From Mobula hypostoma (taxonomy: Eukaryota): a stretch of DNA of 64,000 nucleotides. The stretch covers positions 1,736,001 to 1,800,000 of the forward strand of contig NC_086097.1 in the NCBI RefSeq assembly GCF_963921235.1, written 5' to 3'. Positions 1,558 through 63,739 of this stretch are shown one piece after another. How positions within the stretch are numbered: position 1 is the first letter of the stretch; each line of letters begins with the position of its first letter. The notes under the pieces are model-generated. The model saw nothing but the letters and a program-made list of their open reading frames with translations. It was not told where the DNA came from and searched no databases. Made by a program: the position numbers and the translations under genes.

Positions 1558-2619
1558 AAATCTCCTATCCTCCCTACCAGAGGCTTCTTTGAGATGTATT
1601 CCAAACCTACACGACCACGCAGAGATGCATCAGCTCCACTCCACTACAATTCCACAATTGCAATTTCCAACAAGAGTCAAATTTTAGTTATTTGAAGTAT
1701 TCATACAAAAATACATAAAATATGTTACCTACCTCTGCCAAAGCATTGGTCACAATGAATATACAAAGGAAAAGGTTTTGAAATAGTCGAAAGCTTTTAC
1801 TAATTAGCACCTTTTCTAGCAATAAATATAAAGCAGTCTGGTTAGGGCCAGAAATGCACTTCTACAACAAAACTTGCCTATTCATTTACTTCCTACAAGC
1901 ACTGACTACAAGAGGTGGAGAGTCCTATTACAGTTGGACAAGATATTGGTAGAACTGCACCTGTAGCACTGTGCACGATTATGGTCACAATGACTATCAG
2001 ATATATGAACAGAATTAGGCCATTTGGCCCATCGAGTCTGCTCTGCCATTTCATCTTCCACCAAGGTCAAGGACAGTTTCTACCCTGCTGTTATAAGACT
2101 ATTAAATAGATCCATAGCACTATATGATTGACTCTTGGACTCATAATCTATTTCATGTAATTTCACACCTTATTGACTACCCACACAGCACTTTCTCTGC
2201 AACTGCTACTCATTGTCATTGTTTGACCTTGCTCTATCTCAATGCACTGTGTAAGCTTTTCACTCCTTAGTGATAATAAACCAATTACTTTTCATTGTAA
2301 CCTGTTTCACAATCAACAGCAAATCACAAACATGAGAAAATCTGCAGATGCTGGATGTGTGTGTTGTCACAATCAACAAGAGCATTTACTTTAGTATCAT
2401 CAGCAAACTTACCCATTATGCCTTGTGCTTTCGCATCCAAATCACTTACATGACAGAGGTTCCAATGTACCTCACCAGTCACGAACCTCCAGTTGGAGAA
2501 TCAACCTTCAATCATCACCTTGTTAGCTTCTCCTAAATCCCATCAGTCTAATCTTCTGGATCAGCAGGCCATCCTGCCATGTTGGACCTTGTGAAACACC
2601 CTTCCAAAGTCCCAATAAA

Positions 2620-17822: not shown

Positions 17823-19546
17823 ATAGAACCATAGAACCATAGAAACTACAGCACAGAAACAGGCCCTTTGGCCCTTCTTGGCTGTGCTGAACCATTTTCT
17901 GCCTAGTCCCACTGACCTGCACACGGACCATATCCCTCCATACACCTCCCATCCATGTATCTGTCCAATTTATTCTTAAATGTTAAAAAAGAACCCGCAT
18001 TTACCACCTCGTCTGGCAGCTCATTCCATACTCCCACCACTCTGTGTGAAGAAGCCCCTCCTAATATTCCCTTTAAACTTTTCCCCCCTCACCCTTAACC
18101 CATGTCCTCTGGTTATTTTCTCCCCTTGCCTCAGTGGAAAAAGCCTGCTTGCATTCACTCTATCTATACCCAACATAATTTTATATACCTCTATCAAATC
18201 TCCCCTCATTCTTCTACGCTCCAGGAAATAAAGTCCTAACCTATTCAACCTTTCTCTGTAACTGAGTTTCTCAAGTCCCGGCAACATCCTTGTAAACCTT
18301 CTCTGCACTCTTTCAACCTTATTTATATCCTTCCTGTAATTTGGTGACCAGAACTGAACACAATACTCCAGATTCGGCCTCACCAATGCCTTATACAACC
18401 TCATCATAACATTCCAGCTCTTATACTCAATACTTTGATTAATAAAGGCCAATGTACCAAAAGCTCTCTTTACGACCCTATCTACCTGTGACGCCACTTT
18501 TAGGGAATTTTGTATCTGTATTCCCAGATCCCTCTGTTCCACTGCACTCCTCAGTGCCTTACCATTAACCCTGTATGTTCTACCTTGGTTTGTCCTTCCA
18601 ATGTGCAATACCTCACACTTGTCAGTATTAAACTCCATCTGCCATTTTTCAGCCCATTTTTCCAGCTGGTCCAAGTCCCTCTGCAGGCTCTGAAAACCTT
18701 CCTCACTGTCTACTACACCTCCAATCTTTGTATCATCAGCAAACTTGCTGATCCAATTTACCACATTATCATCCAGATCATTGATATAGATGACAAATAA
18801 CAATGGACCCAGCACTGATCCCTGTGGCACACCACTAGTCACAGGCCTCCACTCAGAGAAGCAATTCTCTACCACCACTCTCTGGCTTCTTCCATCGAGC
18901 CAATGTCTAATCCAATTTACCATCTCTCCATGTATACCTAGCGACTGAATTTTCCTAACTAACCTCCCATGCGGGACCTTGTCAAAGGCCTTTCTGAAGT
19001 CCATGTAGACAATATCCACTGCCTTCCCTTCATCCACTTTCCTGGTAACCTCCTCGAAAAACTCCAACAGATTGGTCAAACATGACCTACCACGCACAAA
19101 GCCATGTTGACTCTCCCTAATAAGCCCCTGTCTATGCAAATGCTTGTAGATTCTGTCTCTTAGTACTCCCTCCAATAACTTACCTACTACTGACGTTAAA
19201 CTCACCGGCCTATAATTTCCCGGATTACTTTTCGACTCTTTTTTAAACAACGGAACAACATGAGCCACTCTCCAATCCTCCGGCACTTCACCCGTAGACA
19301 GCAATATTTTAAATATTTCTGCCAGGGCCCCCGCAATTTCAACACTAGTCTCCTCCAAGGTCCGAGGGAACACTCTGTCAGGTCCCGGGGATTTATCCAC
19401 TTTAATTTTCCTCAAGACAGCAAGCACCTCCTCCTTTTCAATCTGTACAGTTTCCATGGTCTCATTACTTGACTCCCTCAATTCCATAGATTTCATGCCA
19501 GCTTCCTTAGTAAATACAGACGCAAAAAACCTATTTAAGATCTCCC
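17823..19546 (-). mobile_element. Young 5'-truncated CR1 LINE inserted in a Rex1/Babar fragment
   Basis: 531-aa ORF 18021-19616 with full RT motifs; (TTCTATGG)n tail at 17823-17845. Confidence 0.95.
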
Positions 19547-19632
19547 TCTTCTCAAGAGATGCCCTCTTCTTATTGCTGCCATCAAGGAGAAGGTACAGGA
19601 GCCTGACAGGACACACACCACATTTCAGAAAC

Positions 19633-20594
19633 TCTCATGGTCCAGTCTGTGAAGCCCACATTCGGGTTCATGGTCCGGTCCATCGTTCTGTATTCCAGGA
19701 TTTCCAGTTTTCCCTTGTCCTGTTGTGTGCCTTAATTGAGGCACATGATTCTCATTTTGGGCTGGCTACATAAACAGTTCCCAGGTTCAGCTTCAGTTGC
19801 TGGACTGTTCCCTTCCCTTCGCCTTCCTTCTGTAGCCCTCGCCTGCTACATTCGCCTGAAGCCTTGCCCACTACCTTCGCCTGAAGCCTTGCCTGCTACC
19901 TCGCTTGTGTTCTCGCCTTCGCTAGCTAGGTCTGGCCATTTGCCGCTACCTTGTGTTAGGAACTGTCTCTATGTCCATGCCTTCGCTAGGTAGGTCCGGC
20001 CGTTTGCCACTACCTTGTGTTGGGAACTGTCTTTTTGTGCCCTCGCCTCCGCTGGTTAGGTCCAGCCGCTTGCCGCTACCTTGAGTGAAGATCTGTCTGT
20101 CAGTGTTCTGTGTATGAGTCCTGGCACTACGTCCTGCTCCCTAGGAGGGGTCCTGACTCTGTGTAGAGCCCCAGCCCAAAGTCCTGTTCCCAAGGAGGGG
20201 ACCTGGCTCTGTGTTCTATGTTCCTGTTCTCCCTCGACCAAGGGTCTGTGTTCCTGTTCTCCCTCGACCAAGTCAAGGCTTTGTGTTCTCGTCCTGTCCA
20301 CCTGTCTCACTCAGCCCAGTGCTGGGGTTCCCTTGTCCTGTCTGGGAGTCTCACGTCCAGTCCTGTAGCCACGTCTTGTCCTCGCCTGGATCCGGGGTCC
20401 AAGCCCGAGTCAAGACCCAGGTTCCGGGTCCCTGTCCAGTCTCTGGCTCGGAGTCCTTGTCCAGGGCCTGTGTCTTGTCCAGCGTTGTTTCTTCCCCATT
20501 TCCCTTGCTTGCTTGACTCACCTAGTTCTGTTCCTAGTTCTTCAGTGTCTGTGTCTTGCATTTGGGTCCGCCACCAATGCCCCCCGCTATGCCA
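19633..20594 (+). mobile_element. Solo LTR-like element, copy 1
   Basis: 5-bp TSD GAAAC (19628-19632 / 20595-20599); strongly similar to 54233-55363; internal ~60-bp tandem units. Confidence 0.8.
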
Positions 20595-20907
20595 GAAACA
20601 GACTTTTCCCCTCCATCATCGGATTTCTGAATGGACAATTAGTCCACGAACACTACCTCGTTAATTTTTTTCTTTGCTTTCTCTATTTTTGCACTGTACT
20701 AATTTTATAATATATTATATTCTCATTGTAATTTATAGTATTTGAATTATGCATTGCCTCAAAACAGCAAATTTCACATCATATGCTAGAGATATTAAAA
20801 TTGATTCGATGATAATCACACTGACTGTTAATCGCACTAACTCACCAACCGGGTCAATCGCCCTGACTCTGGGTTAACTCACTGACTCTGCGTTAATCTC
20901 ACTAGTT

Positions 20908-20970
20908 GACTGCGCCTCTTCCTATAGATGCTGCTTGGCCTGCTGCGTTCACCAGCAACTTTGATGTATG
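20908..20970 (+). mobile_element. 63-bp Penelope-tail mini-insertion
   Basis: Identical to 28181-28243; flanked by direct repeat TCACTAGTT (20899-20907 / 20971-20979). Confidence 0.85.
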
Positions 20971-20999
20971 TCACTAGTTAACCCCTCTGTTTCCATTTG

Positions 21000-21262
21000 T
21001 GACCCGGGCGGGTTCCCGTTCATCGCGTGTGCGGTAGTGCGGTGAACTCGGGGCAAGCGAGTGCACGGCCACACAAGCCCGCGCGCCACCGAGCACGTAC
21101 GCGCTTTTCCGGGAATTGGTGGCGTCACACGTTGTTGTCTCGATGCCCTGGTAACGGCGGACGTGTTTGCACCAAATATGGTCAGAGCTGCCTCACAGCG
21201 CTGATTGGACGGAGAGCCTGACGTCACGGGGGCAACGGCGTCAATGTGGCCCCACCCGCGAA
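21000..21262. promoter_or_regulatory. CpG-rich candidate distal immediate-early enhancer (or promoter)
   Basis: TTCCGGGAA 21107-21115, CCAAATATGG 21172-21181, CTGATTGG 21201-21208, TGACGTCA 21219-21226, extra GGCGTCA half-sites; CpGs retained within a CpG-depleted TE background. Confidence 0.65.
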
Positions 21263-21264
21263 GG

Positions 21265-22255
21265 GAAAGAGGGGGAGGGAGAGAAAAGAGAGAGAGAGAG
21301 AATGAGAGAGAGAGAGAAAGAATGAGAGAGAGGGAGAGAGAAGGGAGAGAGGGAATGAGAGAGAGGGAGAGAGAATGAGAGAGAGAGAGAATGAGAGAGA
21401 GGGAGAGAGAGAATGAGAGAGGAGAGGGAGAATGAGAGAGAGGGAGAGAGAATGAGAGGGAGAGAGAATGAGAGAGAGAGAGAATGAGAGAGAGGGAGAA
21501 TGAGAGAGGAGAGAGAGAATGAGAGAGAGAGAGGAGAGAATGAGAGAGAGAGAGAGAATGAGAGAGAGGGAGAATGAGAGAGGAGAGGGAGAATGAGAGA
21601 GAGGGAGAGAGAATGAGAGAGAGAGAGAGAATGAGAGAGAGGGAGAATGAGAGAGGAGAGGGAGAATGAGAGAGAGGGAGAGAGAATGAGAGAGAGAGAG
21701 AGAATGAGAGAGAGGGAGAATGAGAGAGGAGAGAATGAGAGAGAGAATGAGAGAGGAGAGGGAGAGAACGAGAGACAAGGATAGAGAGAGAATGAGAGAG
21801 GAGAGAGAGAAAGAGAGAGGGAGAGAGAGAAAATGAGAGAGAGAGAATGAGAGAGAGGGAGAGAGAATGAGAGAGGAGAGAGAGAATGAGAGAGGGGGAG
21901 AGAGAATGAGAGAGAGGGAGAGAGAATGAGAGAGGAGAGGGAGAGAACGAGAGACAGGGATAGAGAGAGAGGAGAGAGAGAATGGGAGAGAGAGAGAGAG
22001 AAAATGAGAGAGAGGGAGAGAGAATGAGAGAGAGGGAGAGAGAGAGAATGAGAGAGAGAGAGAGAGAGAGAATGAGAGAGGAGAGGGAGAGAGAATGAGA
22101 GAGAGGGAGAGAATGAGAGAGAGAGAGAATGAGAGAGAGGGAGAGAGAATGAGAGAGAGAGAGAGAATGAGAGAGGAGAGGGAGAGAACGAGAGACAGGG
22201 ATAGAGAGAGAGAATGAGAGAGATGGAGGGGAGAGAGAGAGGAGAGGGAGAGGTA
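21265..22255. repeat. Compound (GA)n/GAGAAT polypurine microsatellite, about 1 kb
   Basis: Almost exclusively G/A on the plus strand, with periodic AAT interruptions. Confidence 0.97.
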
Positions 22256-24259: not shown

Positions 24260-25092
24260 ACTATAGAAAAACTACAGGACAAAAACAGGCCTTTTGGCCC
24301 TTCTTGGCTGTGCTGAACCATTTTCTGCCTAGTCCCACTGACCTGCACACGGACCATATCCCTCCATACACCTCCCATCCATGTATCTGTCCAATTTATT
24401 CTTAAATGGTAAAAAAGAACCCTCATTTACCACCTCGTCTGGCAGCTCATTCCATACTCCCACCACTCTCTGTGTGAAGAAGCCCCCCCTAATGTTCCCT
24501 TTAAACTTTTCCCCCCTCACCCTTAAACCATGTCCTCTGGTTTTTTTCTCCCCTTGCCTCAGTGGAAAAAGCCTGCTTGCATTCACTCTATCTATACCCA
24601 TCATAATTTTATATACCTCTATCAAATCTCCCCTCATTCTTCTACACTCCAGGGAATAAAGTCCTAACCTATTCAACCTTTCTCTGTAACTGAGTTTCTC
24701 AAGTCCCGGCAACATCCTTGTAAACCTTCTCTGCACTCTTTCAACCTTACTAATATCCTTCCTGTAATTTGGTGACCAAAACTGAACACAATACTCCAGA
24801 TTCGGCCTCACCAATGCCTTATACAACCTCATCATAACATTCCAGCTCTTATGCTCAATACTTTGATTAATAAAGGCCCATGTACCAAAAGCTCTCTTTA
24901 CGGCCCTATCTACCTGTGACACCACTTTTAGGGAATTTTGTATCTGTATTCCCAGATTCCTCTGTTCCACTGCACTCCTCAGTGCCTTACCATTAACCCT
25001 GTATGTTCTACGTTGGTTTGTCCTTCCAACGTGCAATACCTCACACTTGTCAGTATTAAACTGCATCTGCCATTTTTCAGCCCATTTTCCCT
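24260..25092 (-). mobile_element. CR1 3' fragment nested in a plus-strand CR1 ORF1/ORF2 junction fragment (about 24045-25345)
   Basis: 245-aa ORF 24329-25066; the host resumes with YLNARSISNK..ITESWL. Confidence 0.88.
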
Positions 25093-25974
25093 GCAGCCAG
25101 CAGGGTGAGTATCAGTGCATTCAGGATGCAGAATCAAAAGGGCAGCAAATACAGCGCTCAGTGTTATATCTCAATGCACGGAGCATAAGCAATAAGGTGG
25201 ATGATCTTGTTGCTCGATTACAGATTGTCAAGTATGATGTTGTGACCATCACTGAGTCATGGCTGAAGGGTGGATATATTGGGAGCTGAATGTCCAAGGT
25301 TACAGGTTGTATCAGGGAGGATAGGAAGGTCGGCAGAGGGGTGATTTTGGTTTCAAAGTTTAAGAGAAGATTGGATAGGTATGTGGATGGGACGGGTGTG
25401 GTGGATTATGATCCCAGTGCAGGTTGATGGGATTAGGCAGTTTAAATGGCCCATTAACTAGATGGGCCGAAGGGCCTGTTTCTGTGATGTAATTTTCTAT
25501 GACTGTGACTGGGCTGTAGTTACTACTTTTTGTAAGATTTTCCCTTCAAGGGCATTGGTGTTTCCACACCAGGCTGTGATGCAGCCAATCGATATAGATT
25601 CCAGTACATAACTATAAAAATTTTTTTTAAGTTTTAGATGTCATGCTGAATCTTCACAAACTCCTAAGGAAGTAAAGGCACTGCATGCATTCTATGTAAT
25701 TGCATTTACGTGCTGGGCCCAGGACAGTCTTCCAAAATAATAACACTCGGGAATTTAAAGTTGCCGACCCTCTCCACGTCTGATCCTCCAGTGAGGACTG
25801 GGTCATGGGCCTCTGGTTTCCTCCCCAATAATCAGCTCCTTGGTCTTGCTGACGTTCAGTAGGAGGTTGTTGTTGTGCCACCTCTCAGCCAGATTTTCAA
25901 TCTCTCTCCAATATGCTAATTCATCACCACCTTTACTTTGACTTATGACAGTGGTGTTAGACAATATCCATTAC

Positions 25975-26919
25975 CTTGTCTTCACCCAGCCAGATTCAAG
26001 GAGAACCTGATCATTAAATTTGCAGACGATACCACAGTGGTGGGGCTCATCAGCAAAAATGCTGTAACTATGTACAGGGAGGAGGTCAAACACCTAGAGA
26101 GCTGGTGCAGGGATAACAACTTGATGCTTAATGTCACCAAAACCAAGGGGATGATCGTCGATTTCAGACGGTCTCAGCCTAAGCACACACCCCTCAGCAT
26201 CAGCGTCTCCACAGTGGAGAGAGTGGAAAACATCAAGTTCCTTGGGGCGCAGATCTCGGACAATCTCATCTGGTCCAGGAACACCACTGGGATTGTGAAA
26301 CGGGCCCAGCAGGGATTGCACTTTCTGAGGAAGCTTAAACAAGCATCACTCCCCACTAATATCTTAACTACATTCTACAGAGGCGTGGTTGAGAGTGTGC
26401 TGACCTTTTGCATCACAACCTGGTACTCCAGCTGCAGTGCTGTCGACAAAAAAGCCTTGCAGAGGGTGGTTAGGGGAGCAGAGAAGGTTATTGGGGACTC
26501 CCTACCTTCTGTCCAAGACCTCTTTCAGAGTCGATGCCTCCAGAAGACACGGTACATCATTAAAGACCCCTCACACCCTCTCCATGAACTGTTTGTTCTT
26601 CTGCCATCAGGCAAACGTTACAGGAGCATCAAAACTAAACTACAAGGCTACTAAACAGCTTCCTCCCACAGGCAGTCAGACTGCTAAATAGCTGCTCCAC
26701 CTGACTCTGCTTTGGACACTTTTAACTTGCACTGGACACTTATAACTGATTTTAACTGACACGTGGCTGTTGTGTTTTACTACTTATTGTTATGTTTATT
26801 ATTTAGTGTTGTGTTTGTTATGTTATGATTGCACTGCTCCTGGGAAACGCTGTCTCGTTCTGCCCTGCAGAGCTGATGTACGATTAGAATGACAATAACG
26901 TTTTTTGAATCTTGAATCT
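25975..26919 (+). mobile_element. Rex1/Babar-like LINE 3' portion
   Basis: KFADDTTVVGLI, LNVTKTK.MIVDFR, KFLG, ESVLTFCITTWY, DPSHP; (TTGAATC)n tail. Confidence 0.88.
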
Positions 26920-27135
26920 ACTTTCCTGGTAGCATCCTTGACAAATTGTATAAGATTGGTTAGACACAACCTACCACTCACAAAGCCATGCTGAATATTC
27001 CTACTCAGTTCCTGTCCATCCAAATACTCATATATCTAAACAACAGGAATTCTGCAGATGCTGGAAATTCAAGCAACATACATCAAAGTTGCTGGTGAAC
27101 GCAGCAGGCCAGGCAGCATCTCTAAGAAGAGGCGC

Positions 27136-27171
27136 AGTCGACGTTTCAGGCCAAGACCCTTCGTCAGGACT
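27136..27171 (-). ncRNA. Minimal type I hammerhead ribozyme (PLE terminus), intact core
   Basis: AGUC-CUGACGA-AGGGUCUUGGCCU-GAAA-C-GUC^GACU: stem I AGUC/GACU, conserved boxes, loop-less palindromic stem III ACGU. Confidence 0.75.
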
Positions 27172-28148
27172 AACTGAAGGAAGAGTGAGTAAGGGATTTG
27201 AAAGCTGGAGGGGGAGGGGGAGATCCAAAATGATAGGAGAAGACAGGAGGGGGAGGGATAGAGCCAAGAGCTGGACAGGTGATAGACAGAAGGGGATACG
27301 AGAGGATCATGGGACAGGAGGTCCGGGAAGAGAGACAAGGGGGGGGTGACCCAGAGGATGGGCAAGAGGTATATTCAGAGGGACAGAGGGAGAAAAAGGA
27401 GAGTGAGAGAAAGAATGTGTGCATAAAAATGAGTAACAGATGGGGTACGAGGGGGAGGTGGGGCCTTAGCGGAAGTTAGAGAAGTCGATGTTCATGCCAT
27501 CAGGTTGGAGGCTACCCAGACGGAATGTAAGGTGTTGTTCCTCCAACCTGAGTGTGGCCTCATCTCCACAGTAGAGGAGGCCGTGGACAGACATGTCAGA
27601 ATGGGAATGGGATGTGGAATTAAAATGTGTGGCCACTGGGAGATCCTGCTTTCTCTGGCGGACAGAGAAAGCAGGATCTCCCAGAGGCCACACATTTTAA
27701 TTCCACATCCCATTTCCATTCTGACATGTCCATCCACGGCCTCCTCTACTGTAAAGATGAAGCCACACTCAGGTTGGAGGAACAACACCTTACATTCCGT
27801 CTGGGTAGCCTCCAACCTGATGGCATGAACATCGACTTCTCTAACTTCCGCTAAGGCCCCACCTCCCCCTCGTACCCCATCTGTTACTCATTTTTATGCA
27901 CACATTCTTTCTCTCACTCTCCTTTTTCTCCCTCTGTCCCTCTGAATATACCTCTTGCCCATCCTCTGGGTCACCCCCCCCTTGTCTCTCTTCCCGGACC
28001 TCCTGTCCCATGATCCTCTCGTATCCCCTTTTGCCTATCACCTGTCCAGCTCTCGGCTCTATCCCTCCCCCTCCTGTCTTCTCCTATCATTTTGCATCTC
28101 CCCCTCCCCCTCCAGCTTTCAAATCCCTTACTCACTCTTCCTTCAGTT

Positions 28149-28184
28149 AGTCCTGACAAAGGGTCTCGGCCTGAAACGTCGACT
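28149..28184 (+). ncRNA. Hammerhead ribozyme copy with G8A core mutation
   Basis: AGTC-CTGACAA-AGGGTCTCGGCCT-GAAACGTC-GACT. Confidence 0.6.
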
Positions 28185-28714
28185 GCGCCTCTTCCTATAG
28201 ATGCTGCTTGGCCTGCTGCGTTCACCAGCAACTTTGATGTATGTTACTCATATATCTGGTCTCTTACAAAACCTTCCAATAACTTTCCCACAACTGGTGT
28301 CAGACTCACTGGCCTATAATTTCCTGGTTTATGTTTAGAGCCTTTCTTAAACAGTGGAACAATATTGGCCATCCTCCAATCCTCTGGTACTATTTCTGTT
28401 GCTTCGGGTGTTGTAAATATCTCTGCTAGAGCCCCAGCAATTTCTGTACTTGCCTCCTACAGATCCGGGGGAACACTTTATCAGGCCCTGGGGATTTATC
28501 CATCTTAATCTGCCTCAGGACAGCAAACACCTCCTCCTCTAATCTGTACAGAACTCATGAAGTTGATGCCACTTTGCCTCACCTCTATAGACTCTGTGTC
28601 CAATTGCCTCACTTCTGTAGATTCTGAGTCTGACTCCTGAGTAAACACAGATATAAACAATCCATTTAAGATCTCCCTCATCTCTTTTGGCTCCATACAT
28701 AGCTATCCATTCTG

Positions 28715-41579: not shown

Positions 41580-42510
41580 CTATCAGGAAGGCCTTCAAGT
41601 TCTCCGCTTCTCTCTGGACAACAGACCCGACCAGCTCCCCTCCACCACCCTCCTCCGTCTGGTAGAACCGCTCCTCACCCTTAACAATTTCCCTTTCTGC
41701 TCCTTCCCTCCCCGCTCTTTCTCAGAACTCAGGGTATAGCCACGGGCCGCGGCCATGCTTACCGTTTCATTAGCGAGTGGAACAATTTATGTTCCAGGTC
41801 CCTCAGGGCCACATTGACGACTGCATGCACTCATTCTGAGCTCGTCAATTTCATCAACTTTCCTCCAATTTCCAACAGCCCTTAAATTCCCTTAGTCCAT
41901 TTCTGACATCTTTCTCGGTCTCTCTGGAGACAAGACTGTCCAATGATTTTTTTATTTATAAACTTCCCGATTCCCACAGATATATTGACTCCACCCAAAC
42001 TGTCACTTGAATAAATGCTGTTCCCTTTTCTCGGTTCCTTCGTCTCCGCAGCATCTGTACCCAGGATGAGGCCTTCATTTGCAGAACATCTGAAAGAACG
42101 GGGTTCCCTTCCTCCACCATTGACGCTACCCTCACCCGCATCTCCTCCATCCGCCGCCGCACCTGATGAAGGGTTTCAGCCCGAAACGTCGACCATACTC
42201 TTTTTCCATAGATACTGCCTGACCTGCTGGGTTCCTCCAACATTTTGATGTGTTGCTGGGATTTCCAGTATCCGCAGATTATCTCGTTTGTGAACAGTCT
42301 ACGTTTCGGGCCGACTCCCTTCACCGGGCCACAATTCTCTGTAATTCCTGCCATCTTCATTTGGATCAAAATACATCTCCCAATTTCTCAGTTCATCTCC
42401 CCTCCCCCCGCCTTCTTATTCTGGCATTTTCCCAGTCCCGGCGAAGGGCGTCAACTGTTTATTCATTTCCATAGATACTGGCTGAGCTGAGTTCTCCCAG
42501 GATTTTTGCT
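41580..42510 (+). mobile_element. Decayed Penelope-like RT fragment with rearranged termini
   Basis: DNRPDQ.PS.T.LLRL.E..LTLNNF and AVPFSRFLRLRSIC PLE-RT remnants; CTGATGAAGGG..CCCGAAACGTCGAC at 42163-42193. Confidence 0.7.
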
Positions 42511-55363: not shown

Positions 55364-58300
55364 TTCTGCACTCTAATTAGCTGTTGTCACATTGACTGTG
55401 TGTTCCCAATAGCTGATGTCACATTGAATGTGTGTGCCAGTTGAGCCTACATTCCAATTAGTTGTTGTCACATGACTGTGTTCCCATTAGCTGTTGTCCC
55501 ATTGGCCGTGCCTTCCCATTAGCTGTTGTCCCATTGGCCGTGCCTTCCCATTAGCTGTTGTCCCATTGGCCGTGCGTGCCCATTAGCTGTTGTCCCATTG
55601 GCCGTGCGTGCCCATTAGCTGTTGTCACATTGACTGTGTGTGCCCATGGAGCCTACATTCCCATTAGCTGTACACATCCAGCTAATGTGGTGGTGGTTTA
55701 TAGCGCATGTGTTATCATGAGAGGCTGGACCAACTTGGGTTGTTTTCCCTGCAGCTTTGAAGGTTGAAGGCAGATCTGATGGAGGATAATAAAATTATGA
55801 GAAGCATTATGAGAGTAGACAGGGTGCATCTGTTTCCCAGGGTGAAATGTCTGACACTAGAGGGTGAGGGGGATCATTTGAAAGGAGATTTCAGTGGCAA
55901 GGTTTTTTGCACAGAGAGTGGTGGATGTCTGGAATGTGCTGCCTGGGGTGGTGGTAGAGGCAAATACATTGGAGGCTTTTAAGGGATGGCTGGATAGGCA
56001 CATGGATGTGAGGAAGATGGAGGGATATGGACATGGTGTGGGTAGGAGGGATTAGTGTTTAGGTGTTTTTATTTGCTTTTTAGCGGGTTGGGCACAACAT
56101 TATGGGCCAAATGGCTTGTTCCAGTGCTGTACTGTTCCATGTTTGATGTTCTAATATCCCAGAGTTCCTTCCTCTAAACGCAAACACACTCACACAGAGC
56201 AGGGGTGTACACGCATTTTCTGTTATAGGTGCACTTACTCCATGCTGCAGCTGGCAAATCGCAAAGTTCAGGCCTGATGGTCAAGGCCCTTGAATTGGCG
56301 AGACTGGAGGTGGCCTGTCTTGGGGTCAGAGGCCTTTCTTTGTGTAGGGACAGGTCTTGCTTTGCTTTGTTTTACCGTGTTCACATTGTTCTGCTGAGTG
56401 TTGTGGGTATGCAATGTTGGCGTGGGAACACGTGGCTACACTTGAGGGCTGCCTTAGACTGTGTTAGTTGTTAACGCAAACACCGCAGTTTCAAACGTAC
56501 ATGTGATACATGAATGAATGTGAATTTGAATCAGAAATCCACTTTCCTTACAGTTGCACTCTTTAACTACTGCAGTATGTTAGAGCACAGTTGGTGGGTT
56601 TCATTGTTACCCAGAGGATGGGGGACTGGATCAAGTCATTGGACTCACTGAGGCACCATTCCTCATCACACTGAATGAGTGAGGACCTCTGTCAGAACCA
56701 GTTGACCATGGATATTGTTCCTCGCTGTCTAGATACACAAGCCTGGGCAGTACGACATGGAGGGCAAGCCACTGCTGATGTAGCAAGCTGCCACTCTCTA
56801 TGCATCTGATGAATCCAAAGGAACGGCAGAGACCGATAACAGTTTGGTACCATCAGCATCACAGGAGTTGCAAGTCAGCATTGAACTCAATGTACGACTG
56901 CCTTAGGGATTCCAGCTCTGGATTTTTCCCTCACGTTTACTGCCAAATCTTCCTCCATGAGTGGGTGTAGTCGCAAGGCAATAGAGATTTGGGATCAGAG
57001 TTTTCCTTCTCCTTGATCAGCTGCCAACCACAGGCAATGAGCCCCTTCTGCCCGAAGGGACTGGCCTTAAGGTGCCAGCAACCCGTCTTTGCCTCTTCCC
57101 TTATCAGTATAAATGGTTCAGATGGGCTTAGTAGCTAACCCATAGGTGAAGTCCAGGAGCTGGATTTGGTTGTTAGAGGCTACCTGAGTTCCTCCAGCGT
57201 GTTGTGAGTGTTGCTTTGATCTCAGCATCTGCAGATTATTTTGTGTTTACGACTTTCAGGAACTTCCTCATCACATTACAGAAGGAACAAATACTGATGA
57301 GCTGAGGAGATGGTTTAGACGGAGTTATCTAACCTGGAAAAAGGCCATTCAGCTCAACCTGTCCATACTGACCAAGGTCCATATCCCCTTAACCTCTTCC
57401 TATCCAAGTTCTTCTTAAATGATAAAATTGTACCTGCCTCAACTACTTCCTCTGGCAGCTCATTCATTCACCACCCTCAGGTCCTGACTAAATCTTTCCC
57501 CCTCACCTTAAATCTCTGCTCTCTACTTTAGACTCTCTTACCCTGGGGAAAAGACTGTGATCATCCTCCTTTTCCTTATTTATGGCCCTCATGATTTTAC
57601 ATAGTTCTATTAAGTCACTCCGCAGCCTCCTACACTCAGGGAAAACAGTCCTAGCCTGTCCAGTTTCTCATAGAATACTACAGCGTTGAAACAGGCTAGC
57701 TGACCCATCAAATGCATGCCAAACTATTATTTTGCCTCGCCCCATCAACCTACACCTGGACCATAGCCGTCCATACCATTTCCATCCATGTACTTAGCCA
57801 AACTTCTTTGAAGTCATCATAATTCTGGTGATACCTTTTTGCTCCTCTCAATCTCAGTGATGTCCTTCCTATAGCTGGGTGATCAGAACTGCACACAGTA
57901 ATATGGTCTCACACTGCAACGACAGGAAAGCTCTACAACAGGTAGTCAAAAACCACCCAGCACATCACCTGCATCAGACTACCCGCCATCAAGGACACAA
58001 CTACAGAAAGGGCCAGTAACACCAGCTACTCTGCTCATGGACTGTTTGTCCCACTTCCATTAGGCAGCATCCTCGCCAGAACTACCAGACTCAAACGTTA
58101 ATTTCCCCAATCCGAATCAGAATCAGCTTTATTATCACCAGCAATGGTTGTGAAATTTGTTGACTTAACAGCAGCAGTTCAATGCAATACATAATATAAA
58201 AGAAAAAAAGTAAACATATATAAATAAGTAAATCAAATACAGTGTATGTATATTAAATAGATTAAAAATTATGCAAAAACAGAAATAACATATATTTAAA

Positions 58301-58423: not shown

Positions 58424-61400
58424 ACAAAATACTCTGCAGATGCTGGGGTCGAAGCAACACTCACAACACGCTGGAGGAACTCAGCAGGTCAGGCAGCATC
58501 CGTGGAAAAGATAAGTCGACGTTTTGGGCCGGAACCCTTCATCAGGACTGTAGAGGGAAGGGGCAGAGGCCCTATAAAGAAGGTGGGGGGGGAGGGTGGG
58601 AAGGAGAAGGCTGGTAGGTTCCAGGTGAAAAACCAGTAAGGGGAAAGATAAAGGGGTGGGGAAGGGAGGCAGGGAGGTGATAGGCAGGAGAGGTGAAGAA
58701 AGAATAGGAGAAAACACAATGGGTAGTAGAAGGAGGCGGAACCAGGAGGGAGGAGGTAGGCAGCTGGGGGAGGGGGCAGAGTGACATAGGGATAGAGGAA
58801 GGGAGGGGGAGGGAATTAACAGAAGTTGGAGAATTCTATGTTCATACCAAGGGGCTGGAGACTACATAGACGGTATATGAGGTGTTTCTCCTCCAACCTG
58901 AGTTTAGCCTCATCATGGCAGTAGAGGAGGCCATGTATGGACATATCTGAATGGGAGTGGGAAGCAGAGTTGAAGTGGGTGGCTACTGGGGGATCCTGTC
59001 TGTTTTGGCGGACGGAGCGGAGGTGCTCGATGAAGCGGTCCCCCAATCTGCGTCCGGTTTCACCGATGTAGAGGAGGCCGCAACGGGAGCACCGGATGCA
59101 ATAGATAGAACATAGGACATAGAATAGTACAGCACAGTACAGGCCCTTCGGCCCACAATGTTGTGCTGACCCTCAAACCCTGCCTCCCATATAAGCCCCC
59201 ACCTTAGATTCCTCCATATACCTGTCTAGTAGTCTCTTAAACTTCACTAGTGTATCTGCCTCCACCACTGACTCAGGCAGTGCAGTCCACGCACCAACCA
59301 CTCTCTGAGTAAAAAACCTTCCTCTAATATCCCCCTTGAACTTCCCATCCCTTACCTTAAAGCCATGTCCTCTTGTATTGAGCAGTGGTGCCCTGGGGAA
59401 GAGGCACTGGCTATCCACTCTATCTATTCCTCTTATTATCTTGTACACTTCTATCATGTCTCCTCTCATCCTCCTTCTCTCCAAAGAGTAAAGCCCTAGC
59501 TCCCTTAATCTCTGATCATAATGCATACTCTCTAAACCAGGCAGCATCCTGGTAAATCTCCTCTGTACCCTTTCCAATGCTTCCACATCCTTCCTATAGT
59601 GAGGTGACCAGAACTGGACACAGTACTGCAAGTGTGGCCTAACCAGAGTTTTATAGAGCTGCATCATTACCTCGTGACTCTTAAACTCTATCCCTCGACT
59701 TATGAAAGCTAATACCCCATAAGCTTTCTTAACTACCCTATCCACCTGTGAGGCAACTTTCAGGGATCTGTGGACATGTACCCCGAGATCCCTCTGCTCT
59801 TCCACACTACCAAGTATCCTGCCATTTACTTTGTACTCTGTCTTGGAGTTTGTCCTTCCAAAGTGTACCACCTCACACTTCCCCGGGTTGAACTCCATCT
59901 GCCACTTCTCAGCCCACTTCTGCATCCTATCAATGTCTCTCTGCAATCTTTGACAATACTCTACACTATCTACAACACCACCAACCTTTGTGTCGTCTGC
60001 AAACTTGCCAACCCACCCTTCTATCCCCACATCCAGGTCGTTAATAAAAATCACGAAAAGTAGAGGTCCCAGAACAGATCCTTGTGGGATACCACTAGTC
60101 ACAATCTCCAATCTGAATGTACTCCCTCCACCACCACCCTCTGCCTTCTGCAGGCAAGCCAATTCTGAATCCACCTGGCCAAACTTCCCTGGATCCCATG
60201 CCTTCTAACTTTCTGAATAAGCCGACCGTGTGGAACCTTGTTAAATGCCTTACAAAAATCCATATAGATCACATCCACTGCACTACCCTCATCTATATGC
60301 CTGGTCACCTCCTCAAAGAACTCTATCAGGCTTGTTAGACACGATCTGCCCTTCACAAAGCCATGCTGACTGTCCCTGATCAGACCATGATTCTCTAAAT
60401 GCCTATAGATCCTATCTCTAAGAATCTTTTCCCAACAGCTTTCCCACCACAGACGTAAGGCTCACTGGTGTATAATTACCCGGACTATCCCTACTACCTT
60501 TTTTGAACAAGGGAACAACATTCACCTCCCTCCAATCCTCCGGTACCATTTCCGTGGACCACGAGGACATAAAGATCCTAGCCAGAGGCTCAGCAATCTC
60601 TTCTCTCGCCTCGTGGAGCAGCCTGGGGAATATTCCGTCAGGCCCCGGGGACTTATCTGTCCTAATGTATTTTAACAACTCCAACACCTCTTCTCCCTTA
60701 ATATCAGCATGCTCCAGAACATAAACCTCACTCATATTGTGCTCACCATCATCAAGTTCCCTCTCATTGGTGAATATTGAAGAGAAGTATTCATTGAGGA
60801 CCTCGCTCACTTCCACAGCCTCCAGGCACATCTTTCCACCTTTATCTCTAATCGGTCCTACCTTCACTCCTGTCATCCTTTTTTTTTCCTTCACATAATT
60901 GAAGAATGCCTTGGGGTTTTCCCTTACCCTACTCGCCAAGGCCTTCTCATGCCCCCTTCTTGCTCTTCTCAGCCCCTTCTTAAGCTCCTTTCTTGCTTCC
61001 CTATATTCCTCAATAGACCCATCTGATCCTTGCTTCCTAAACCTCATGTATGCTGCCTTCTTCCTCCTGACTAGATTTTCCACCTCACTTGTCACCCATG
61101 GTTCCTTCACCCTACCATTCTTTATCTTCCTCACCGGGACAAATTTATCCCTAACATCCTGCAAGACATCTCTAAACATCGACCACATGGCCATAGTACA
61201 TTTCCCTGCAAAAACATCATCCCAATTCACACCCGCAAGTTCTAGCCTTATAGCCTCATAATTTGCCTTTCCCCAATTAAAAATTTTCCTGTCCTCTTTG
61301 ATTCTATCCTTTTCCATGATAATTATAAAGGCCAGGGAGCGGTGCTCACTGTCCCCCAGATGCTCACCCACTGAGAGATCTGTGACCTGACCCGGTTCAT

Positions 61401-62610
61401 TACCTAGTACTAGATCTAGTATGGCATTCCCCCTGGTCGGCCTGTCCACATACTGTGACAGGAATCCATCCTGGACACACTTAACAAATTCTGCCCCATC
61501 TAAACCCTTGGAACTAATCAGGTGCCAATCAATATTAGGGAAGTTAAAATCACCCATGATAGCAACCCTGTTATTTTTACACCTTTCCAAAATCTGCCTC
61601 CCAATCTGCTCCTCTGTATCTCTGCTGCTACCAGGGGGGCTATAGAATACCCCCAGTAGAGTAACTGCTCCCTTCCTGTTCCTGACTTCCACCCATATTG
61701 ACTCAAAAGAGGATCCTGCTACATTACCCACCCTTTCTGTAGCTGTAATAGTATCCCTGACCAGTAATGCCACCCCTCCTCCCCTTTTTCCACCCTCTCT
61801 ATCCCTTTTAAAGCACTGAAATCCAGGAATATTGAGAATCCATTCCTGCCCTGGTGCCAGCCAAGTCTCTGTAATGGCCACTACATCATAATTCCATGTA
61901 TGTATCCAAGCTCTCAGTTCATCACCTTTGTTCCTGATGCTTCTTGCATTGATGACCCCAACAGACTCACAAGTGAAGTGTTGCCTCACTTGCAAGGATG
62001 GTTTGGGGCTCTGAATGATGGCAAGAGAGGAGGTGTAGGGACAGGTGTAGCACTTGCGCTTACAGGGATAAGTGCCAAGTGGGAGATCCGTGGGGAGTGT
62101 GGACCAGGGAGTTGCGGAGGGACCGATCCCTGTGGAGGGGGGTGGAGGGAGAAAAATGTGCTTAGTGGTGGGGTCCTGTTGAAGGTGGCAGAAATTGCGG
62201 AGGATAATGTGCTGGATCCGGAGACTGGTGGGGTGGTAGGTGAGGACAAGGGGAACTCTGTCCCTGTTGTGGTGACGGGAGGATGGGGTGAAGGCCGAAG
62301 TGCGGGAAATGGAGGAGATGCAGGTGAGGGCATCATTAATGACAGCAGAAGGGAAACCATGATCCTTAAAGAAAGAGGGCATCTGAGATGTCCTGGAATG
62401 GAAAACCTCATCATCGGAGCAGGTGTGGCAAAGACGGAGGAACTGGGAATAGAAAATGGCATTTTTGCATGTGGCGGGGTGGGAAGAGGTAGTTATGAGA
62501 GTCAGTGGGCTTGCAGAAGATGACAGTGGACAGTCTGTCTCCAGAGATGGAGACCAAGAGATCAAAAAAGGGGAGAGAAGTGTCCGAGATAGACCAAATG
62601 AATTTGAGGG
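58424..62610 (-). mobile_element. Penelope-like element (RT thumb, linker, GIY-YIG, 3' terminus) split by a CR1 at 59105-61950
   Basis: SSHP..CKNAI.YSQFLRL, RVPLVLTYHP, CKRKCYTC, FTCESVGVI | YCIRCSRCGLLYIGET.RRL.DRF.EH..VATHFN..GMN; hammerhead remnant 58514-58549 (G12A). Confidence 0.9.
59105..61950 (-). mobile_element. Young CR1 with nearly complete ORF2 (APE+RT), two frameshifts
   Basis: NARSIRNK..ITETWL..MGDFN..DSEH; RT ORFs 60099-60356 and 59173-60174; TTCTATG tail at 59105-59125. Confidence 0.95.
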
Positions 62611-63739
62611 CTCATGCCCTGGGTGTTGGAGGTCCTTAATAATGGACACTGCCTTTCCGAGACATCGCTACCTGAAGATGTCCTGGGTACTTTGTAGGCT
62701 AGTGCCCAAGATGGAGCCGACTAAATTTACAACCCTCTGCAGCTTCTTTCAGTCCTGTGCAGTAGCCCCCTCCCCCCCCATACCAGACAGTGATGCAGCC
62801 TGTCAGAATGCTCTCCATGGTACATCTATAGAAGTTTTTGGGTGTATTTGTTGACATACCAAATCTCTTCAAACTCCTGATGAAGTATAGACGCTGTCTT
62901 GCTTTCTTTAGAACTGCATTGATATGTCTGGACCAGGTTAGATCCTCAGCGATCTTGACACCCAGGAACTTGAAGCTGCTCACTCTCTCCACTTCTGATC
63001 CCTCTATGAGGATTGGTATGTGTTCCTTCGTCTTACCCTTCCTGAAGTCGACAATCAGCTCTTTCGTCTTACCCTCGTTGAGTGCCAGGTTGTTGCTGCA
63101 GCACCACTCCATTAGTTGGCATATCTCACTCCTGTAGCCCTCTGGTCACCACCTGAGATTCTACCAACAATGGTTGTATCACCAGCAAATTTATAGATGG
63201 TATTTGAGCTATGCCCAGACACAGTCATGGGGATATAGAGAGTAGAGCAGTGTGCTAAGCACACACCTTGGAGGTGTGCCAGTGTTGATCGTCAGCGAGG
63301 AGGAGATGTTATCACCAATCCACAGAGATTGTGTTCTTCCGATAGGAAGTCGAGGATCCAATTACAGAGGGAGGTACAAAGGCCCAAGTTCTGCAACTTC
63401 TCAATCAGGATTGTGGGAATGATGTATTAAATGCTGAGCTATAGTCGATGAACAGAATCCTGACGTAGGTGTTTGTGTTGGCAGTGAGGCTGATCAACAC
63501 CTCCACCCACTAACCCACCCCTCTACACCCCACCACCACTACTTTATCACTTTCTGTCAAAGTCACCTTATGTACAGACACTCCTGTGCCTAGCATCACT
63601 CTATGGACATAAAATTATATTTATTGTTTTTTTTATTATTGTGTTCTTTATTTCATCGTGTCATTTTGTGTGGTATCAGATCCCCAATAACAGTTATTTC
63701 ATTCTCCCTTACATTCCCGCAGATACACAGGTCTTGTAA

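What the first reader, a model, noticed from the sequence alone, without database searches (positions are those of the whole stretch)
20899..20979. 63-bp TSD-flanked retro-insertion that starts exactly at the predicted hammerhead cleavage site
Seen: 20908-20970 is identical to the PLE tail at 28181-28243. It begins at GACTGCGCC, the first base after the GUC^ cleavage triplet, and is flanked by a 9-bp direct repeat TCACTAGTT. Its 3' end (..GATGTATG/T) is the same position at which the right arm of the 27-28 kb insertion ends. Inference: this is a genomic fossil of the ribozyme's 3' cleavage product, reverse-transcribed by the PLE RT from a fixed priming point. That would be in vivo evidence of cleavage and could define a class of ribozyme-bounded micro-retroposons.
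Basis: partly seen in the sequence, partly recalled or inferred. Interest (0 to 1): 0.8.

Follow-up and report, generated by a model that had tools for sequence, protein, structure and literature searches.

The report
Tiny Penelope retroelement insertion at ribozyme site
A 63-base, freshly inserted scrap of a Penelope-like jumping gene begins exactly where that element's hammerhead ribozyme should cut, which may record the ribozyme working in vivo, but it is one case and could be coincidence.

Summary
20908-20970 is identical (63 of 63) to 28181-28243. It is flanked by the exact 9-bp repeat TCACTAGTT and starts at the G after the GUC of a minimal, dimer-type hammerhead motif. It ends where the right arm of the 27-28 kb insertion ends.

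The source is a Penelope-like element (PLE). The evidence is a GIY-YIG ORF end, a hammerhead, an inverted 5'-truncated pair, a 13-bp TSD and a 39-nt "tail" on one arm only.

The "fixed priming point" is already published: PLE reverse transcriptase initiates internally at two sites separated by the tail (PMC11167929).

Only the 5' end at the scissile bond would be new, and the support is one case.
- Two other PLE micro-insertions in the window start elsewhere.
- Contigs from two organisms show 191-250 junctions per run at the distal 3' end, but no listed class at the scissile bond (truncated output).
- The hammerhead next to the identical copy has a mutated core.

I read it as a dead-on-arrival TPRT insertion. 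Run-off on a cleaved template is about 0.4 likely and coincidental truncation about 0.4. No ribozyme-bounded class is shown.

The parts
20899..20907 (+). Left copy of the target-site duplication TCACTAGTT
   Evidence: the 9-mer occurs only at 20899 and 20971 in the window.
20908..20970 (+). The 63-bp micro-insertion. It spans PLE positions +1 to +63 after the predicted hammerhead scissile bond and ends at the proximal (tail-less) RT start
   Evidence: 63 of 63 identical to 28181-28243; alignment to the left arm.
20971..20979 (+). Right copy of the TSD. The first T could instead be element position +64
28181..28244 (+). Identical terminal segment of the right arm of the 27-28 kb PLE insertion. 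It ends at +64 and has no tail
28149..28180 (+). Hammerhead motif of the right arm: AGTC / CTGACAA / helix II / GAAAC / GTC. The core carries G8->A at a CpG
   Evidence: It does not match CTGANGA...GAAACGTC.
27140..27171 (-). Hammerhead motif of the left arm with an intact core (AGTC CTGACGA AGGGTCTTGGCCT GAAAC GTC^)
27077..27139 (-). Left-arm copy of the 63-nt segment (60 of 63 identical)
27038..27076 (-). The 39-nt 'tail' extension, present only on the left arm. It ends at the distal RT start
   Evidence: In one search the loose ends at 27038 number 246, 250, 191 and 227 contigs in X1, X2, X5 and X6.
27025..27037 (+). Left copy of the 13-bp TSD TACTCATATATCT of the inverted PLE pair (right copy at 28245-28257)
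27624..27854 (+). C-terminal end of the PLE ORF in the right arm (...LEEQHLTFRLGSLQPDGMNIDFSNFR*)
   Evidence: In one search it is 48 of 62 identical to the ORF end at 58816-59172 (-), which matches GIY-YIG.

Best explanation
The 63 bp are a dead-on-arrival insertion made by the Penelope-like element's own machinery through target-primed reverse transcription.

Proposed steps:
1. The GIY-YIG endonuclease made a staggered cut, which produced the 8-9 bp duplication.
2. The RT started internally on the PLE RNA at the proximal of its two known start sites (...GAUGUAUG/U, just 5' of the 39-nt tail).
3. The cDNA ran off after 63 nt because the template's 5' end was the 5'-OH left by hammerhead self-cleavage at GUC^G.

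The template need not be a small RNA. Any transcript processed at an upstream hammerhead, including a unit-length PLE RNA, has the RT-start region 63 nt from its 5' end and can give only this stub.

Shown: the insertion, the TSD, the exact ends and the PLE source. Taken from the literature: internal initiation and protein-assisted cleavage in vitro. Inferred: that cleavage, rather than premature termination, set the 5' end.
For: - Exact ends and TSD. The 5' junction has no ambiguous base and no extra bases.
- The motif fits a minimal type I hammerhead. It has CUGACGA, GAAA and a GUC triplet. Helix I is AGUC/GACU plus a G-U pair (read by eye), and the GUCGAC palindrome is centred on the scissile bond (2 matches, 0 in 100 shuffles).
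- PLE identity; the inverted pair and one-sided tail.
- 3' ends recur. In the window 2 copies end at +63/64 and 6 at the distal end. In one search the distal end collects 191-250 contigs per run with AT-rich, heterogeneous flanks, and a proximal end at 27073 collects 64 contigs in X5.
- PMC11167929 (main text read) reports four relevant results. RT initiates at two internal sites separated by the tail. The hammerhead cleaves only when the PLE protein is present. The cut site is at +26. A template starting at +20 is still active.
- An RT stalled by the helix I duplex would stop several nt short of +1, so an end at exactly +1 fits run-off better (inference).
Against: - There is only one instance.
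- 2 of the 3 PLE micro-insertions in this window have other 5' ends.
- One search lists no loose-end class on the hammerhead side of 27139/27140. If rows are ranked by count, that class holds at most about 6-14 contigs per run, against 191-250 at the distal end.
- There is no depth step at the site: in X1, 4.8M for 27120-27136 against 5.7M for 27137-27153.
- The hammerhead beside the identical copy has G8->A.
- In PMC11167929, hammerhead mutants did not change the insertion size in vitro, and no Anolis RNA-seq reads begin or end at the site.
- Minimal PLE hammerheads cleave poorly in vitro and need dimers (PMC4209133, passages read).
- Rfam gives no hammerhead match.
Confidence: 0.42

Rival explanations
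1. The same TPRT micro-insertion, but the 5' end is ordinary premature termination (5' truncation) of cDNA synthesis on an uncleaved RNA. Its match to the scissile bond is coincidence.
For: - Extreme 5' truncation is the norm for PLEs (PMC8557442, passages read) and is seen here. A 48-bp insertion with a 12-bp TSD lies at 2319-2366, and a 62-bp piece starting at +34 lies at 57184-57245.
- Summed contig depth falls fastest near the 3' end: in X1, 11.5M at 27086-27102, 8.05M at the hammerhead core and about 4M some 250 nt upstream. My rough estimate from this is about 0.4% of insertions ending at any given nt here, hence a few percent chance of one exact hit among the roughly 9 PLE insertions in the window.
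- No listed loose-end peak at the site.
- No in vivo cleavage signal in Anolis (PMC11167929).
Against: The match is exact to the nucleotide, with no microhomology and no filler. The site is not arbitrary: it is the one phosphodiester bond the motif is built to break. Protein-assisted cleavage inside the RNP has been shown in vitro (PMC11167929).
Confidence: 0.38
2. The template's 5' end at +1 arose in another way. It could be a transcription start in the pLTR promoter, or a cut by a cellular nuclease at the exposed C17/G1.1 junction. RT then ran off that end.
For: PLE promoters lie in the pLTR, and a downstream copy's transcript starts in the upstream pLTR (review PMC6765202, passages read). 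This gives the same geometry as the best explanation.
Against: No start site has been mapped for this family. Nothing in the window points to a promoter at this base. RT copying of a capped 5' end often adds an extra base (recalled), and none is seen here.
Confidence: 0.08
3. Local origin. The 63 bp were copied from the right-arm copy 7.2 kb away on the same strand, either from its transcript or as a DNA-templated patch during break repair. In that case the neighbouring dead hammerhead (G8->A) could not have cut.
For: The two are identical at 63 of 63 positions. They share T at element position 28, which is below the 3% listing threshold genome-wide (27112 is absent from table 3). They also share T at position 18, a minority state (32% of depth in X1, 15% in X5). 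Both are on the + strand.
Against: - A clean 9-bp TSD points to an endonuclease-made staggered cut rather than templated end-joining.
- The right arm lacks the tail, and PMC11167929 found that sequence beyond the start sites is needed for template activity.
- A small, young subfamily carrying these variants would explain the sharing equally well.
Confidence: 0.07
4. It is a deletion remnant of a longer element.
For: None found.
Against: Exact 9-bp direct repeats abut both ends of the 63 bp, and there is no other PLE sequence in the flanks.
Confidence: 0.02

Closest known systems
5'-truncated Penelope-like element insertions with an optional 30-40 bp tail, made by internal RT initiation (Frangieh et al. 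2024, PMC11167929; Craig et al. 2021, PMC8557442)
   Same: The features match: a GIY-YIG-type ORF end, a hammerhead in the terminal non-coding region, an inverted 5'-truncated partner, a tail on one end only, two alternative 3' ends, variable TSDs and AT-rich targets.
   Different: The length is extreme (63 bp), and the 5' end falls exactly on the hammerhead scissile bond. I found no report of this in the papers read or in the listings of two full-text searches.
HDV-like ribozymes at the 5' ends of R2, L1Tc and related non-LTR elements (review PMC6765202, passages read)
   Same: A self-cleaving ribozyme sets the 5' end of the retroelement RNA. The 5' boundary of the DNA copy can therefore mark the cleavage site.
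   Different: In those elements the ribozyme lies at the 5' end of the functional unit, and cleavage is part of productive transposition. Here the cut would sit 63 nt upstream of the RT start and would give a dead stub. The ribozyme class also differs (hammerhead, dimer type).
Animal non-LTR retrozymes (Cervera and de la Pena 2020, PMC7229834; Li et al. 2026 preprint, 10.64898/2026.07.22.740005)
   Same: They are non-autonomous, related to PLE pLTRs, and their RNA ends are defined by hammerhead cleavage.
   Different: Retrozymes are tandem units of about 170-400 bp, each with its own hammerhead, and are expressed as circular RNAs. This piece is single, 63 bp long, and contains no ribozyme.
Dead-on-arrival 5'-truncated LINE insertions (recalled general knowledge)
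   Same: A TSD, an intact 3' end, a missing 5' part and no coding capacity.
   Different: The 3' end is set by internal initiation rather than a poly(A) tail.

Membership tests
Penelope-like element (EN+ type), 3'-terminal fragment | ORF with a C-terminal GIY-YIG endonuclease | tested here: met
   In one search, 58816-59172 (-) matches PF01541 (E 1.3e-4, 22.7 bits against a cut-off of 22.6). The 76-aa arm ORF alone gave 0 families. In one search the arm ORF end is 48 of 62 identical to the matching ORF.
Penelope-like element (EN+ type), 3'-terminal fragment | Telomerase-like RT domain | not tested
   No PLE RT stretch was identified in the window. All copies here are 5'-truncated or interrupted.
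Penelope-like element (EN+ type), 3'-terminal fragment | Inverted 5'-truncated partner and a 30-40 bp tail at one end only | tested here: met
   the arms are 96.8% identical over 590 bp; a 39-nt tail at 27038-27076 on the left arm only.
Penelope-like element (EN+ type), 3'-terminal fragment | Recurrent 3' ends at two internal RT start sites | tested here: met
   In the window, 2 copies are proximal and 6 distal. In one search the loose ends fall at 27037/27038 (all four runs) and at 27073 (X5).
Hammerhead ribozyme, minimal dimer-type variant of PLEs | Core CUGANGA ... GAAA with an NUH triplet | tested here: met
   The left arm and the 42-kb copy match. The right arm does not, because it reads CTGACAA.
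Hammerhead ribozyme, minimal dimer-type variant of PLEs | Helix I and helix II complementarity, and a palindrome in place of helix III | tested here: met
   Read: AGUC/GACU plus a G-U pair, a 3-4 bp GC helix II, and the GUCGAC palindrome. The MFE folds prefer an alternative pairing of core bases, so an active fold is not predicted.
Hammerhead ribozyme, minimal dimer-type variant of PLEs | Match to Rfam hammerhead covariance models | tested here: not met
   0 matches at gathering score in the whole window; 23 matches at E up to 10 in 26900-28400, none a hammerhead. This is expected for motifs without a helix III hairpin.
Hammerhead ribozyme, minimal dimer-type variant of PLEs | Self-cleavage at the predicted bond | not testable with these tools
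   This needs in vitro or in vivo RNA end mapping.
Non-LTR retrozyme | Tandem units, each carrying a hammerhead | tested here: not met
   It is a single 63-bp copy with no hammerhead inside it.
TPRT dead-on-arrival insertion | A TSD, a canonical 3' end and a missing 5' part | tested here: met

The most novel reading that the evidence does not exclude
PLE hammerheads do cleave in vivo inside the RNP. Every cleaved RNA that still holds the RT gives a stub running from the scissile bond to the internal start site (63/64 bp, or about 102 bp with the tail). Such stubs would form a genome-wide footprint class, up to a few percent of insertions. That footprint would measure ribozyme activity in the germline. 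It would also imply that cleavage aborts transposition rather than promoting it, making the hammerhead a brake or a parasite of the element.
Probability: 0.25. Interest if true: 0.75.

Novelty: new member of a known kind. Interest (0 to 1): 0.45.

Why it matters
The role of hammerheads in endonuclease-bearing PLEs is unresolved. [quoted passage not shown] PMC11167929 saw protein-assisted cleavage in vitro but no in vivo ends. If 5' ends of micro-insertions pile up at the scissile bond, existing genome assemblies would supply the missing in vivo evidence, and would show whether cleavage helps or aborts transposition. This locus is one data point and, mainly, a recipe for that test.

Tried and rejected
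- Whole-genome tabulation was not possible because no genome is held for this window.
- More copies were sought with a degenerate 24-letter motif in metagenome, viral and prokaryote genome contigs. All three scans gave 0 hits.
- Earlier scan notes gave nothing for this place or sequence. One word search gave none. Another gave 10 notes on other genomes that do not bear on this claim.
- Sequencing runs are all Logan contigs, with no raw reads, so RNA 5' ends and small RNAs could not be examined. As a result the empty-site check at 20.9 kb in organism B was not done.
- The output is truncated (24 of 1617 loose-end rows, and 'some not counted' for X1 and X2), so it gives only an upper bound. The loose ends at 27135 and 27171 have consensus sequences that are the element itself, which marks subfamily divergence rather than breakpoints. 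The joints that skip 62-80 nt have 20-letter sides and 'between: not known', so I did not interpret them.
- The 3'-terminal hairpin idea: in the fold the proximal start lies at the loop/3'-stem junction of a long hairpin. However, the z-score is -0.5, and one search found 0 of 15 pairs with compensatory changes across 4 copies. This is a lead only.
- The deletion-remnant and retrozyme readings were rejected (see rival explanations and membership test).
- The supplements of PMC11167929 hold no searchable text on these points. PMC5785218 (Lunse et al.) is not held.

Full report
**1. The observation.** One search shows ...aatc TCACTAGTT | GACTGCGCC...GATGTATG | TCACTAGTT aacc... at 20899-20979. 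The 63-mer matches three places in the window at up to 3 mismatches: 20908-20970 (+, 0 mismatches), 28181-28243 (+, 0) and 27077-27139 (-, 3). None of 100 shuffles gave a match. An exact 9-bp repeat flanking a 63-bp segment occurs at 42 start positions, 41 of them inside the (GA)n tract at 21.27-22.25 kb; the other is 20908. The 9-mer occurs only twice in the window. The site lies next to a 19-bp, 2.1-copy local repeat, but the 72-bp spacing of the two 9-mers is unrelated to that period. Observation confirmed.

**2. The source element.** The region 27038-28244 holds two 5'-truncated copies of one element lying head to head. They are 96.8% identical (19 mismatches in 590) and are flanked by the 13-bp TSD TACTCATATATCT (27025-27037 and 28245-28257).

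Each arm carries, in order:
- an ORF end (...LEEQHLTFRLGSLQPDGMNIDFSNFR*);
- about 330 nt of pyrimidine-rich non-coding sequence;
- the motif AGTC-CTGACGA-AGGGTCTTGGCCT-GAAAC-GTC;
- the 63-nt segment.

The arm's ORF end is 48 of 62 identical to the ORF end at 58816-59172 (-), which matches Pfam GIY-YIG (22.7 bits, cut-off 22.6). The left arm alone continues for 39 nt (27038-76). An inverted 5'-truncated partner, a hammerhead in the terminal repeat and a 30-40 bp tail at one end only are the published hallmarks of Penelope-like elements (PMC8557442, passages). The insertion sits inside a CR1-like LINE fragment.

**3. The ribozyme.** The motif fits the minimal type I hammerhead described for PLEs (PMC4209133, passages). 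It has the CUGANGA core, GAAA and a GUC triplet. Helix I is AGUC/GACU plus a G-U pair, and helix II is short and GC-rich. There is no helix III hairpin; instead a palindrome (GUCGAC) could form helix III between two molecules. By the standard numbering the scissile bond follows C17, giving GUC^GACUG, and the 63-mer starts at G1.1.

Only sequence supports this assignment.
- Rfam gives no hammerhead match, neither at gathering score in the whole window nor at E up to 10 in 26900-28400 (the 23 hits there are miRNA-like matches to the palindrome and other weak chance matches).
- The MFE folds prefer an inactive pairing.
- The pattern CTGANGA-N(8-24)-GAAACGTC hits only the left arm and the 42-kb copy. 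The right arm reads CTGACAA, a G8->A change at a CpG.
- In PMC11167929, C3G and G8C abolish activity of the Anolis PLE hammerhead. That G8->A does the same here is my inference.

**4. The 3' end.** The micro-insertion ends at +63, or +64 if T at 20971 belongs to the element. The right arm ends at +64. The left arm, the copies at 42, 58 and 63 kb, and two other short pieces end at the distal site about 39 nt further on. That makes 2 proximal and 6 distal ends in the window.

PMC11167929 (main text read) showed that the purified Anolis PLE protein starts reverse transcription inside the RNA at two adjacent sites. The sequence between them is the optional tail, and genomic copies end at these sites. 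The hammerhead cut site there lies 85-92 nt upstream of the mapped start (cut at +26, start at 111-118). Here the distances are 63/64 and about 102 nt.

**5. Genome-scale check.** No genome is held for this window. One search found DNA runs of two coded organisms: A, probably the source of the window, and B, a relative. All runs are kept as Logan contigs. I laid X1 and X2 (organism A) and X5 and X6 (organism B) on 26950-27450, which covers flank, tail, the 63 nt, the hammerhead and the UTR.

- The family is very abundant in both organisms: 51,952 to 103,133 contigs were laid per run at 90% likeness or better.
- The best-supported loose ends are at 27038, with 246, 250, 191 and 227 contigs, and at 27037, with 81 in X2 and 78 in X5. 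Their flanks are long, AT-rich and heterogeneous (agreement about 0.4). This is the distal 3' end joined to many different targets.
- X5 also shows 64 contigs at 27073, a proximal end at +67.
- The classes at 27135 and 27171 have consensus sequences that are the element itself, so they reflect subfamily divergence.
- No class is listed on the hammerhead side of 27139/27140. The smallest listed classes hold 6-14 contigs.

If rows are ranked by count, insertions starting exactly at the scissile bond number at most a few percent of distal junctions. The caveats are that only 24 of 1617 rows are shown and that X1 and X2 were not fully counted. Depth shows no step at the site: in X1 it is 4.8M for 27120-27136 and 5.7M for 27137-27153. 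These bins are confounded by divergence. The result argues against a dominant class but cannot exclude a peak of up to a few percent.

**6. Other micro-insertions in the window.** A profile of five tails found 11 hits at E below 0.01. Two of them are short, isolated pieces.
- 2319-2366 (-) is 48 bp of tail-only sequence between exact 12-bp repeats that occur nowhere else in the window.
- 57184-57245 (+) is 58 of 62 identical to the 58-kb copy, starts at +34 and has no clear TSD.

So 1 of 3 micro-insertions starts at the scissile bond. From the fall in depth near the 3' end I estimate roughly 0.4% of insertions ending at any given nucleotide there. That gives a few percent chance of one exact hit among the roughly 9 PLE insertions in the window. 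This is a rough, post hoc estimate.

**7. Relatedness to the right arm.** Table 3 and together give the following for the element positions where the copies vary.

| Element position | Micro-insertion and right arm | Share of that state genome-wide |
|---|---|---|
| 15 | C (left arm has a private T) | 97% |
| 18 | T | 32% of depth in X1, 15% in X5 |
| 28 | T | below the 3% listing threshold (27112 not listed) |
| 61 | A (also in the left arm) | 19% in X1, 4% in X5 |

The micro-insertion and the right arm therefore come from the same small lineage, or one comes from the other. If the template was a transcript of the right arm after its G8->A change, cleavage is unlikely. I cannot decide this without other copies.

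**8. Mechanism.** Both leading readings share the core, which I hold at about 0.9: an endonuclease-made staggered cut, internal initiation at the proximal site, 63 nt of cDNA and a dead-end insertion. They differ only in what ended the cDNA.

For run-off on a cleaved RNA (0.42):
- the end is exact to the nucleotide, with no microhomology or filler;
- cleavage is protein-assisted in vitro;
- a template starting at +20, 6 nt upstream of the cut, is still active (PMC11167929);
- an RT stalled by helix I should stop short of +1 (inference).

For coincidental truncation (0.38):
- there is one case, and other micro-insertions end elsewhere;
- no loose-end peak is listed at the site;
- hammerhead mutants did not change product size in vitro, and no in vivo RNA ends were seen in Anolis;
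- minimal hammerheads are weak.

Minor rivals are another kind of RNA 5' end (0.08), local copying from the right arm (0.07) and a deletion remnant (0.02).

**9. Comparison and novelty.** As an object this is one more 5'-truncated PLE copy, unusually short. The idea that a ribozyme sets a retroelement's 5' boundary is established for HDV-like ribozymes in R2 and L1Tc (PMC6765202, passages). For PLE hammerheads no in vivo evidence is reported in the papers I read. Two full-text searches listed no paper whose title or abstract start describes insertions bounded by the hammerhead site; I judged this from listings only and it is not exhaustive. Retrozymes are the nearest 'ribozyme-bounded' elements, but they carry their hammerhead and are tandem, so this piece is not one. 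The finding's value is as a cheap, decisive test to run on the whole assembly.

Noticed in passing
window 2307-2378 (-): A 48-bp insertion consisting only of a PLE tail (2319-2366), flanked by an exact 12-bp TSD that occurs nowhere else in the window. It has about 11 unaligned bases at its 5' end and 6 extra bases at its 3' end.
   Followed up: partly
window 57184-57245 (+): A 62-bp PLE 3' fragment, 58 of 62 identical to the 58-kb copy. It starts at +34 after the scissile bond and runs to the distal end. No clear TSD.
   Followed up: partly
window 42032-42335: A composite locus. ORF-internal PLE coding sequence (BLASTP E 3e-10 against the 60-62 kb copy) abuts the 5' edge of a hammerhead core, with helix I lost. 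After that copy's tail comes an inverted hammerhead fragment that stops about 7 nt past its own GTA site. This could be a template jump or nested insertions.
   Followed up: partly
window 28153-28159 vs 27161-27167: The right-arm hammerhead core reads CTGACAA (G8->A at a CpG) and the left arm reads CTGACGA. Among the laid contigs no other letter reaches 3% at the left-arm core positions (table 3).
   Followed up: partly
window 27038-27103 (-): In the single-sequence fold, the proximal RT start lies at the loop/3'-stem junction of a long hairpin whose 3' strand is the first part of the tail. The sequence is conserved among four copies, but no compensatory changes were found.
   Followed up: partly
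window 26950-27450, runs X1/X2/X5/X6: The PLE terminal module is extremely abundant in two related organisms (about 52,000-103,000 contigs per run at 90% likeness or better). Flanks at the distal end are strongly A/T-rich, in line with the AT-rich target preference reported for PLE endonucleases.
   Followed up: partly
window 21275-22252: A degenerate (GA)n tract of about 1 kb, just downstream of a GC-rich block at 21000-21200.
   Followed up: no
window 18021-19634, 24329-25111, 25920-26654, 59173-62667: Several CR1/L2-like LINE reverse-transcriptase fragments. One of them (26823-27035 and 28244-28456) is split by the 27-28 kb PLE pair.
   Followed up: no
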